Source: the human T2T-CHM13v2.0 reference genome, Homo sapiens. From it: a DNA stretch of 64,000 nucleotides. Of the stretch, positions 19,185 through 22,168 are shown piece by piece. A program made the translations under genes and the position numbers. A model generated the notes under the pieces. The model did no database searches. It was not told the origin of the DNA and saw nothing but the letters and a program-made list of their open reading frames with translations. The stretch lies in NCBI RefSeq assembly GCF_009914755.1, contig NC_060935.1; one strand, written 5' to 3'. How positions within the stretch are numbered: position 1 is the first letter of the stretch; each line of letters opens with the position of its first letter.

Positions 19185-19348
<164 letters not shown>

Positions 19349-19411
19349 TGAAAGCATTTTTGTTGAAGTCATTTCAAGAGGCTAATCTATATACTTTTTT
19401 AAAAGATGTTT

Positions 19412-19870
19412 TCTGATAGTTGTACATAGTTCTGAACTCAGTATCTGTTCAACAAACACTTACTGAGCACCAACCAAGTTCTAGGGAATCAAAGATAGCA
19501 AATAGTTTTCATCTATACTTGAAGCCATTGCTTCCCACTGGTGTCCTCTTTTCCACATGAGACCACCGGCTATGTAGATTGCCTTATCACTTATTAAAAT
19601 TTTGCCCATCCTTCATCACACATCTCCTGAGCCTGCTTCTTGGTGAAGCCCTCCCTGATCATTCTAGCCAGCTGTGTTCCCTTGCCTTGTGAGGTCTCAT
19701 GGTATTGAGTGATGGCATCTCACAAACTTGTTATCTGAGGTCTAGCTTGTTGGCTATTTGTAGACATGTCTTTGGTACCTCTGTCCCAAAATCATTAGTG
19801 ATTATAACTTCCTGGAAGACAGGAAACATATTGCAACAAATTTGGTATAGAAAAAGAACTTGGAACTTTG
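19412..19870 (+). repeat. Inverted repeat, left arm (459 bp)
   Basis: Reverse complement of 20828-21282; I count about 8 substitutions and one 4-bp indel; ORFs 19699+ and 20799- give near-identical peptides. Confidence 0.97.
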
Positions 19871-20715
19871 GAGTCCCAGTGTTGGAGATACAAGGATGAA
19901 CAACACAAAGGTCGGTCTTCATTGTGTTTACAGTCTAGTGGTGAGGATAGTAGGCTACAATTGCTCTAGTGAAGATCACTTGATTCCATATGTGGTGTCA
20001 GGAAGGAAGATGCAGGTGCAATGGGAACAGATTATAGAGGAGCCTAATTTGGCTCGTAAAGTCGGTGGTTTCTTTAAGGAAATGGTGGTTTCAGCTGAGT
20101 CTTAAAAGATACAAGCTATCTGGAAGAATTCAGGTGGGATAGAGCTTTCCAGGCTGATAGGACATCATGTGTGAAGGCCCTGAGGTATTCAAGAAGCAGA
20201 CAGAAAGCTGGTGTGACTCAAACCTAAAGAGTTAGTGAGGGAAAGTGTGATGTGAGATGAAAGAGCACATGTGTTACGTTAACCAGAGGCCTTGAAGTTG
20301 TTTTAAAGACTGGAACAACTGGAAACCTCTGGAAGATTTGGAAGATAGCGACCTGTTCAGCTTTGTGTTTTAGAACAGTCACTCTGAATATAGAGTGGAG
20401 AATCGATCAGAGGTAGGCAAGAGTGGATGACCAGTTAATAGACTCAGAATATTCCACATGAGAGATAGCAGGGTCTTGAAAATGGTAATTTAGCATGGTG
20501 GAAAGAAATAGTTGGCTTTGAAACCCATTTGGGAGACAAAATCAATGGAACTTTGTGACTGATTAGATATGAAAGCAAGGAGAGGTAGTTGTCAAAAATG
20601 TTTCCTGGATTTTGTCGTGAGCCACTGAATAGGGTGCTGATCAATGAAATGGCAAACACACCGGGTGAGCCAGTTTGGCAGAGCTAGTGAGTTACATGGT
20701 GGCCACATTTAACTT
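19871..20715 (-). mobile_element. L2 LINE fragment forming most of the inverted-repeat spacer
   Basis: 'gtgttggagatacaaggatgaacaa...tttacagtctagtggtgag', 'catgtgtgaaggccctgagg', 'tttagaacagtcactctg' are reverse L2 motifs. Confidence 0.72.
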
Positions 20716-20827
20716 CACAGCAGCACTTCAGATGAGAAAAAAATGAGATTCAGATAAATTAAATGACTCCTTATTTTCACCATTAAGGATAATACTGATC
20801 AGGTGGGAAGTTCAGACTTCCTGATTA

Positions 20828-21282
20828 CAAAGTCCCAAGTTCTTTTTCTATACCAAATTTGTTGCAATATGTTTCCTGTCTTCCAGGAAGTTATAATCAC
20901 TAATGATTTCGGGACAGAGGTACCAAAGACTTGTCTACAAATGGCCAACAAGCTAGACCTCAGATAACAAGTTTGTGAGATGCCATCACTCAATACCATG
21001 AGACCTCACAAGGCAAGGGAACACAGCTGGCTAGAATGATCAGGGAGGGCTTCACCAAGAAGCAGGCTCAGGAGATGTGTGATGAAGGATGGGCAAAATT
21101 TTAATAAGTGATAAGGCAATCTACATAGCCGGTGGTCTCATGTGGAAAAAAGGACACCAGTGGGAAGCAATGGCTTCAAGTATAGATGAAAACTATTTGC
21201 TATCTTTGAGTCCCTAGAACTTGGTTGGTGCTCAGTAAGTGTTGAACAGATACTGAGTTCAGAGCTATTTACAACTATCAGA
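20828..21282 (-). repeat. Inverted repeat, right arm (455 bp)
   Basis: Runs from 'caaagtcccaagttctttttcta' to 'acaactatcaga', the reverse complement of the left arm. Confidence 0.97.
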
Positions 21283-21364
21283 TCTTATATATCCCAGATC
21301 CTCCCAGTAGAGGATCTGGGATATATAAGATCTGATAGTTGTAAATAGCTCTGAACTCAGTATC
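21249..21364. repeat. Perfect hairpin: 55-bp stem, 6-nt loop (ccagta)
   Basis: 21249-21303 is the exact reverse complement of 21310-21364. Confidence 0.97.
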
Positions 21365-21412
21365 CTCCCAGTAGAGGATCTGGGATGTATAAGAAGTTTC
21401 TGTAAGGTTTTT

Positions 21413-22168
21413 AGTCTCAACCAATAACACTCAACATGCCCTTCTTATAACAAGTATTTTGTAGTACAAACTTTCCTATCCTGAAATGAAAATCATGGAT
21501 AAAATAATCTGCCTATACTCACAGTTTCAAAAAAAATCAATTGTGATGTTTTAAGTGTGAGGAAAAGACTAATTAAAAGAAAAGTAAATGATAACATGGT
21601 ACATATTTTAGTATGAGATTGCTAGTAGGTAAGCACCCTAGAAGACATTATGAAGGAGTCAGATACTTGCAATGACACAAAGAATATCCAGGAATGTAAC
21701 ACATGCAGACTGACACAGGTGCCATTCTTAAATTCCACGAGTTATGTCACCTTCCATCACGTAATTTTTTTTAAATGGTAAACAACTTTTAGTAGAGTTA
21801 TTCTTTTAAATTACAAACAACTTTTGATTTACATGGAAATTGTGTTCCTGGAACATTTAGTGTATATTAAAACCTTGAAAATAAATGAATTTTTATATAT
21901 GCAAAATGGAATTTGATGTTAGACTCAGATAAATATAGCTATGTTTCTTTCTCACGTATATGAATAATGAGTGGAACATTAGAAAATTATGTGGAACACT
22001 AACAGTTTTTTACTTGGCAAGATTATATTATACTTTTCAAAGTACCTGGCATCCCTGACCCTTGTCTAATAAATGTTGATATTGCTCTCTCAAATCAATA
22101 AAAAATGTCCCCACAATTTTCCAAAACATTACCCCAGGGGTGGGACTGCTTCTATTGAAAACTATTGA
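21413..22168. mobile_element. hAT-Charlie DNA transposon remnant (MER20B-like)
   Basis: End 'ccccaggggtgggactgcttctattgaaaactattg' and internal 'cctggcatccctgaccc...aaatgtccccaca' resemble the MER20 family. Confidence 0.5.

What the first reader, a model, noticed from the sequence alone, without database searches (positions are those of the whole stretch)
21249..21394. Perfect 55-bp-stem hairpin plus overlapping 33-bp direct repeat at the outer junction of the inverted repeat
Seen: 21249-21303 pairs perfectly with 21310-21364 (loop ccagta), and atcctcccagtagaggatctgggat(a/g)tataaga occurs at both 21298-21330 and 21362-21394. The third copy of the arm end (21331-21364) carries the right-arm alleles (gtaaatagctct), not the left-arm alleles (gtacatagttct). 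Inference: it was copied from, or homogenised with, the right arm by fold-back synthesis, then rejoined the template through 'atc' microhomology. Zero stem mismatches against ~2% divergence between the long arms suggests a later event or ongoing hairpin correction. Near-perfect palindromes of this length can extrude cruciforms and could be Drosha/Dicer substrates if transcribed.
Basis: partly seen in the sequence, partly recalled or inferred. Interest (0 to 1): 0.7.

Follow-up and report, generated by a model that had tools for sequence, protein, structure and literature searches.

The report
Template-switch scar hairpin upstream of BDNF
A perfect 55-base-pair DNA hairpin about 59 kb upstream of the human BDNF gene is real, and is likely the ordinary, non-functional scar of one old replication accident in which nearby DNA was copied backwards several times.

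Summary
The genome search matched only this locus. The main inference fails. At the long arms' divergence (8 substitutions and one indel in 455 bp), a mismatch-free 55-bp stem has P = 0.33-0.48. A weaker post hoc signal remains: 3 of 3 differences fall in the non-stem copy (p = 0.037). New here: the 460-bp inverted repeat is a reciprocal chimaera. The left arm is 78 bp of original sequence plus a 381-bp inverted copy inserted into an old repeat (paralogues read across the gap, z = 9.1). The right arm is original sequence plus an inverted copy. Two junctions each occur twice, inverted, and a 6-bp mini-stem primes the hairpin. Best reading: one serial template-switch (MMBIR-like) event, roughly 4-35 Myr old and neutral. 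It does not fit pre-miRNA geometry, reaches no Rfam threshold and has no annotated host transcript. No orthologues, reads or RNA data were available.

The parts
19412..19489 (+). Segment B: outer part of the left long arm, in its original position. It ends with the start of an old interspersed repeat (name L2 recalled).
   Evidence: A 22-nt motif at 19450-19471 has 50 genomic matches at <=1 mismatch, itself included, against 0 for the control. Ungapped paralogue columns agree to about 19489.
19490..19870 (-). Inverted copy of segment D (381 bp), inserted inside the old repeat
   Evidence: 40 paralogues starting with the B motif continue into 19871 onward (z = 9.1; 7 of 40 score >=16 against 0.19 expected), not into this stretch (z = 0.7). 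In 4 of the 8 best alignments the offsets place the resumption 15-17 nt after the motif.
19871..20827 (+). Segment C: 957-bp spacer, collinear with B on its left and D on its right
   Evidence: single copy in the genome search
20728..20843 (+). Old SINE-type repeat (name MIR recalled) that crosses the inner edge of the right arm
   Evidence: A de novo profile (96 hits in 261 kb, locus excluded from the library) matches at E = 2e-4. 1 of 300 shuffled-tail controls reaches the real score.
20828..21209 (+). Segment D: inner part of the right long arm, in its original position
21210..21282 (-). Inverted copy of segment B (outer part of the right arm), with a derived 4-bp deletion
   Evidence: The right-arm form of the motif matches only itself in the genome (1 match), against 50 for the left-arm form
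21249..21303 (+). Left stem of the perfect 55-bp hairpin: 34 bp of inverted B plus 21 bp of inverted flank E
21304..21309 (+). 6-nt loop, same orientation as in the flank copy at 21368-21373
21310..21364 (+). Right stem of the hairpin; 21331-21364 is the third copy of the arm end
21298..21330 (+). Direct-repeat copy of the flank (33 bp, one difference)
21362..21394 (+). Flank E: the likely source of the 33-bp repeat and the resumption point
21362..21379 (.). 6-bp mini-stem with 6-nt loop, the likely primer of the strand reversal. Its outer edge is the left edge of both direct-repeat copies.
   Evidence: Folds at -3.2 (top) and -4.0 (bottom) kcal/mol. 196 of 64,000 window positions begin such a stem.

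Best explanation
The hairpin, the 33-bp direct repeat and the 460-bp inverted repeat are likely one scar, probably made in a single germline episode of serial template switching (MMBIR-like) at a broken or stalled fork, and are likely neutral. SHOWN: the region reads A-B-inv(D)-C-D-inv(B)-inv(E')-loop-E'-B'-E. B-C and C-D are continuous old repeats, so inv(D) and inv(B) are the copies. The B/D junction and the B/E' junction each occur twice in inverted orientation, and the left edge of E is used twice. INFERRED: the ancestor was A-B-C-D-E. A displaced nascent strand jumped between B and E about 1.4 kb apart, reversed at the 6-bp mini-stem and copied 49 nt of itself. It later reversed again to copy D and B from its own strand, adding about 530 bp in all. 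The stem is perfect because one arm was templated from the other, with any synthesis error copied into both, and too little time has passed for a mismatch to be certain. Which strand was nascent is undetermined.
For: Repeat continuity fixes original and copy in both arms. Each piece of 21249-21394 is explained by local templates, with 3 mismatches in all and 0 in the self-copied 49 nt. Primer overlaps are 6 nt at the hairpin centre and 3 nt at the return, with a 7-nt identity between 21208-21214 and 19871-19877. P(0 mismatches) = 0.33-0.48 without correction. Both arms carry private derived alleles (left 19488: A in 1 of 40 paralogues, C in 18 of 40; right 4-bp deletion). [quoted passage not shown]
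Against: All 3 differences among three-copy segments lie in the non-stem (source) copy; P = 1/27 = 0.037 under independent mutation after a single error-free origin (post hoc). B shows more differences than D (4 of 78 against 5 of 381, Fisher p = 0.049), which a single age without errors or conversion does not predict. Two junctions show no measurable overlap (21282|21283 on either side; 19870|19871 on the one side that can be measured). Loytynoja and Goldman argue that short human switches are inter-strand, not fold-back. No orthologue was seen, so the ancestor and the single-event claim are inferred.
Confidence: 0.62

Rival explanations
1. Two steps: the long inverted repeat formed first and diverged, and a later fold-back copied the right-arm end to make the hairpin and the 33-bp repeat.
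For: Both B differences are shared by the right arm and the third copy. The odd-one-out test gives p = 0.037. The top-strand path reproduces the sequence.
Against: Zero mismatches is not significant. The path needs a prior inverted copy of E' and a return 18-33 nt behind already copied sequence, a type not seen among single human-chimp events. A later event does not explain the E' difference, which needs its own mutation.
Confidence: 0.2
2. Ongoing correction: the stem forms a hairpin or cruciform in the germline and is repeatedly re-homogenised by strand switching or mismatch repair. The long arms may also convert each other and flip the 957-bp spacer.
For: p = 0.037 for differences avoiding the stem, and lower divergence in D than in B (p = 0.049). 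Long arms with a short spacer favour secondary structure (PMC7999016, passages).
Against: No excess of perfection over expectation. The centre is GC-rich (53%). The loop has the same orientation as its source. The locus did not appear in the inversion or template-switch tables searched.
Confidence: 0.12
3. A functional small-RNA precursor (de novo miRNA or endo-siRNA hairpin) born by template switching.
For: Template switching has created human miRNA stems (PMC10710096). The RNA fold is very stable.
Against: Stem and loop geometry are off the Drosha preference. No UGU/GUG in the loop region on either strand. Best Rfam score is 47.2 bits against a gathering score of 90. The supplied annotation has no transcript here.
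Confidence: 0.03
4. Assembly or sequencing artefact: a fold-back read or a cell-line-specific rearrangement.
For: Palindromes trouble sequencing (PMC4057610, search listing). Raw reads were not available.
Against: The copies differ from their sources by specific substitutions and an indel, the junctions are multi-template, and unique sequence resumes after 21394. A fold-back read artefact would copy exactly.
Confidence: 0.03

Closest known systems
MMBIR-type templated insertions (MMB-TI), complex class (PMC8421209; passages read)
   Same: Inverted copies of nearby templates, several templates in one event, short microhomologies, germline origin, no gross rearrangement.
   Different: Templates lie about 1.4 kb apart rather than within 100 bp. 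Copied tracts reach 381 bp. Two junctions are duplicated in inverted form, which implies copying of newly made DNA.
Short-range template-switch mutations, four-point model (PMC5453318 passages; PMC7954356 abstract, first part of Introduction and supplement search)
   Same: One-step creation of a perfect inverted repeat, primed at a short pre-existing inverted repeat.
   Different: This locus needs several switches, not two, and includes a re-copied 33-bp tract outside the event types those papers observed. It was not found in the S15/S16 tables at the estimated GRCh38 position.
Fold-back inverted duplications at double-strand breaks in yeast (PMC11724301; abstract, sections 15 and 19)
   Same: Snap-back priming at a short inverted microhomology; one junction with longer overlap and the other with little or none.
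   Different: Those are somatic yeast assay products, mostly 5-34 bp. Here the product is fixed in a genome and nested in a larger inverted duplication.
De novo miRNA hairpins made by template switching (PMC10710096; parts 1-2 of 6 read)
   Same: A perfect stem from one mutation.
   Different: Longer stem, shorter loop, intergenic with no annotated host transcript, no known miRNA family.
Inversions mediated by inverted repeats (InvFEST type; PMC3961182 search listing only)
   Same: A spacer flanked by 98%-identical inverted arms.
   Different: The arms are only ~460 bp. No second orientation was found in the tables searched.

Membership tests
Template-switch / MMBIR templated insertion | Inserted DNA is a copy, partly inverted, of nearby templates | tested here: met
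   Every piece maps to B, D or E within 2 kb; the genome search found no other source
Template-switch / MMBIR templated insertion | Microhomology at junctions | tested here: inconclusive
   6 nt and 3 nt at two junctions, and a 7-nt identity at a third. None at 21282|21283, and none on the measurable side of 19870|19871.
Template-switch / MMBIR templated insertion | An ancestral allele without the insertion | not testable with these tools
   No primate genomes are held. Indirect support comes from repeat paralogues.
Recurrently corrected quasi-palindrome | Stem more perfect than neutral divergence predicts | tested here: inconclusive
   P(0 of 55) = 0.33-0.48; odd-one-out p = 0.037, post hoc
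Recurrently corrected quasi-palindrome | Concerted changes in both arms across lineages | not testable with these tools
   No orthologues or pangenome alleles
Canonical pre-miRNA | About 35-bp stem with a loop of 10 nt or more | tested here: not met
   55 bp and 6 nt against the preference stated in PMC10710096
Canonical pre-miRNA | Match to a curated family | tested here: not met
   All 5 miRNA-model hits lie below gathering scores, best 47.2 of 90
Canonical pre-miRNA | Transcription and precise ~22-nt products | not testable with these tools
   No RNA data; no transcript in the supplied annotation
Palindromic non-autonomous DNA transposon (MITE) | Many dispersed copies with terminal inverted repeats | tested here: not met
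   Matches only within this locus; the stem is built from local B and E sequence
Palindromic AT-rich repeat (PATRR) | AT-rich centre and arms of hundreds of bp (feature partly recalled) | tested here: not met
   Centre 53% GC, whole hairpin 37% GC, arms 55 bp
Polymorphic inversion between inverted repeats | Highly similar inverted arms flanking a spacer | tested here: met
   459/455-bp arms at 98%, spacer 957 bp
Polymorphic inversion between inverted repeats | Both orientations present in populations or apes | not testable with these tools
   No entry found in the tables searched; no haplotypes available

The most novel reading that the evidence does not exclude
A self-correcting palindrome nested in a reciprocal-chimaera inverted repeat. 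The 55-bp stem has been kept perfect for millions of years by recurrent germline strand-switch correction, and the 957-bp spacer flips between the 460-bp arms as an uncatalogued micro-inversion 57-59 kb upstream of BDNF. With three copies of two segments, the locus would be a built-in clock for measuring hairpin correction against neutral mutation across apes and the human pangenome.
Probability: 0.12. Interest if true: 0.55.

Novelty: new member of a known kind. Interest (0 to 1): 0.27.

Why it matters
As it stands this is a well-preserved example of a known mutational process. Its value is as a natural test case. Junctions duplicated in inverted form point to copying of newly made DNA, which the short-range human literature considers rare. 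The three-copy segments allow single origin, later origin and ongoing correction to be told apart with a handful of primate alignments. It also shows that arms of a long inverted repeat can each be part original and part copy. Nothing found here links it to BDNF regulation or to small-RNA function.

Tried and rejected
Single-sequence nhmmer searches of each segment against 261 kb of flank were too weak to place repeats (best E 0.001-7). A profile from 20 paralogues found B in both arms but not the continuation at 19871; the pairwise test on 40 paralogues did. A whole-genome DNA search with 19871-20700 returned only itself. Segment D found no local paralogue, so the ancestral D/E junction is untested. 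Tandem Repeats Finder found nothing at the hairpin. The bacterial promoter/terminator scan was empty and is not relevant to a human locus. Rejected: MITE/transposon origin, PATRR, Rfam miRNA membership, and 'perfect stem implies recent or corrected'. Literature look-ups for the locus were negative. Term searches: one search gave 0 papers; none of the 15 listed papers held 'upstream of BDNF'. Supplement searches: PMC7954356 (0 hits for prefix 27780; 2 of 4 places of 27781 per file not displayed; file S14 too large to read), PMC10710096, PMC13629690, PMC10150506, PMC1270012 and PMC13155455 (only a 4.6-kb file was held, so its Table S4 of long human repeats was not seen). GRCh38/hg19/hg17 positions were estimated from recalled BDNF coordinates, so those negatives are conditional; T2T positions were exact. 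The journal version of the 729-inversion catalogue was not held under the id tried and its preprint supplements are closed.

Full report
1. Observation. The finding is exact. 21249-21303 and 21310-21364 form a perfect 55-bp stem around a 6-nt loop, and 21298-21330 matches 21362-21394 at 32 of 33 positions. The next-longest perfect stem in the window is 12 bp. In 200 kb of flank the longest are 19-21 bp. None of 200 shuffles folds as well (z = -16.1 DNA, -17.8 RNA). A search of the whole T2T genome with 21230-21420 returned 4 matches, all in this locus. The long inverted repeat is 19412-19870 / 20828-21282 with a 957-bp spacer, 8 substitutions and one 4-bp indel. The third copy carries the right-arm alleles.

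2. Anatomy of the long repeat. A 22-nt motif in the left arm (19450-19471) has 50 genomic matches at <=1 mismatch, against 0 for the reversed control. I fetched 40 of the 49 other matches. Their downstream sequence resembles the start of the spacer (19871 onward; z = 9.1; 7 of 40 score >=16 against 0.19 expected). It does not resemble what follows the motif in the left arm (z = 0.7) or three other candidate stretches (z = -0.5 to 0.9). In 4 of the 8 best alignments the offsets put the resumption 15-17 nt after the motif; two others show shorter offsets, one a longer one, and one is in another register. So 19490-19870 is an insertion into an old repeat, with little loss. A de novo profile seeded with spacer sequence and iterated on 261 kb that excludes this locus matches 20728-20843 (E = 2e-4), crossing the inner edge of the right arm. 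Only 1 of 300 shuffled-tail controls reaches the real score. So the inner right arm (D) is original. The right-arm form of the B motif, 4 bp shorter, matches only itself, so inv(B) is a derived copy. The names L2 and MIR for these repeats are recalled, not from a library. Each long arm is therefore part original, part copy: A-B-inv(D)-C-D-inv(B).

3. Anatomy of the hairpin. The left stem is 34 bp of inv(B) plus 21 bp of inverted flank E. The right stem is the same two pieces forward. The flank begins with a 6-bp stem and 6-nt loop (21362-21379; -3.2/-4.0 kcal/mol). Its outer edge is the left edge of both direct-repeat copies; 196 of 64,000 window positions begin such a stem. Overlaps are 6 nt at the hairpin centre and 3 nt at the return, none at 21282|21283, and 21208-21214 is identical to 19871-19877. 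Two junctions (B/D and B/E') each occur twice in inverted orientation, so each was made once and then copied. Two paths reproduce the block with the same 3 source-versus-copy mismatches and 0 in the self-copied 49 nt. Sequence alone does not choose between them.

4. Is the stem too perfect? No. At 8-9 events per 455 bp about one mismatch is expected in 55 bp: P(0) = 0.38 or 0.33, 0.38 with rate uncertainty, and 0.48 using D alone; Fisher p = 0.6-1.0. The fairer test is that 3 of 3 differences among three-copy segments fall in the non-stem copy, p = 0.037, chosen after seeing the data. B differs more than D (4 of 78 against 5 of 381, p = 0.049), and stem-copy versus source is 3 of 64 against 5 of 381 (p = 0.09). 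These results run against a single error-free origin. They are also what error-prone synthesis followed by self-copying would give, and variant density is about doubled around germline SV breakpoints (PMC4937565, abstract). A later event or correction stays possible. With recalled rates of 0.5-1.0e-9 per site per year and no conversion, 8 substitutions give 9-18 Myr (95% range 4-35), so the structure is probably shared with other apes (inference).

5. Mechanism. Most likely (0.62) this is one germline episode of serial template switching at a broken or stalled fork, adding about 530 bp (381 + 152), and neutral since. Shown: the segment order, which copies are original, the duplicated junctions and the primer overlaps. 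Inferred: the ancestor, the single event, intra-strand copying, the age and neutrality. Loytynoja and Goldman report that short human switches look inter-strand and that returns behind the start point were not observed (PMC5453318, passages). This counts against a simple later two-switch event, and also means that fold-back here would be atypical. Complex germline templated insertions from up to five templates are described (PMC8421209, passages), as is microhomology fold-back at breaks in yeast (PMC11724301, abstract and two sections).

6. Function. The supplied annotation shows no transcript over the site. BDNF's 5' end is about 59 kb away and the nearest listed enhancer 15 kb away. Rfam gave 5 miRNA-model hits, all below gathering scores (best 47.2 of 90), plus an SRP-like hit on an Alu-type fragment. 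The geometry differs from the ~35-bp stem and >=10-nt loop preferred in pri-miRNAs (PMC10710096), and the loop region has no UGU/GUG. Hairpin or cruciform formation is plausible for long arms with a short spacer (PMC7999016, passages), but the centre is 53% GC and nothing was measured. The longest perfect human repeat with a spacer up to 8 bp has 140-bp arms (PMC13155455, passage), so 55 bp is unusual but not extreme; I could not obtain a genome-wide count.

7. Novelty. I found no description of this locus in two term searches or six supplement searches. The limits are listed under Tried and rejected: recalled coordinate conversion, unread or closed files, and most subscription papers not held. 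The process is known, so this is a new member of a known kind. Interest 0.27. The self-correction and spacer-flip reading has probability 0.12 and would merit 0.55.

Noticed in passing
window 21208-21214 and 19871-19877: The same 7-mer sits at the D/inv(B) junction and at the start of the spacer, and six of its bases are complementary to the end of B (right-arm allele). This suggests a short palindrome at the ancestral B/C site that seeded the B-to-inv(D) switch.
   Followed up: partly
window 19392-19420 and 21385-21412: The flank outside the left arm and the flank beyond the direct repeat share an imperfect direct similarity of about 20 nt next to the blunt junction 21282|21283; 4 nt of it are absent at the junction itself. 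Possible microhomeology; not tested statistically.
   Followed up: partly
window 19871-20827: The 957-bp spacer between 98%-identical 460-bp arms could invert by recombination; no entry found in the inversion tables searched.
   Followed up: partly
window about 21446-22164: An interspersed repeat just downstream of the hairpin, with a copy at L017:4921-5646 (E = 7e-32); it resembles a hAT-Charlie DNA transposon (name recalled).
   Followed up: no
window 19215-19331: Alu-monomer-type fragment (Rfam SRP hit, 57 bits, below the gathering score of 70).
   Followed up: no
L025:5357-5400 and L007:7491-7534: Perfect stems of 19 bp (6-nt loop; resembles a mariner-derived MADE1 end, name recalled) and 20 bp (4-nt loop, AT-rich) in the downstream flank.
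   Followed up: no
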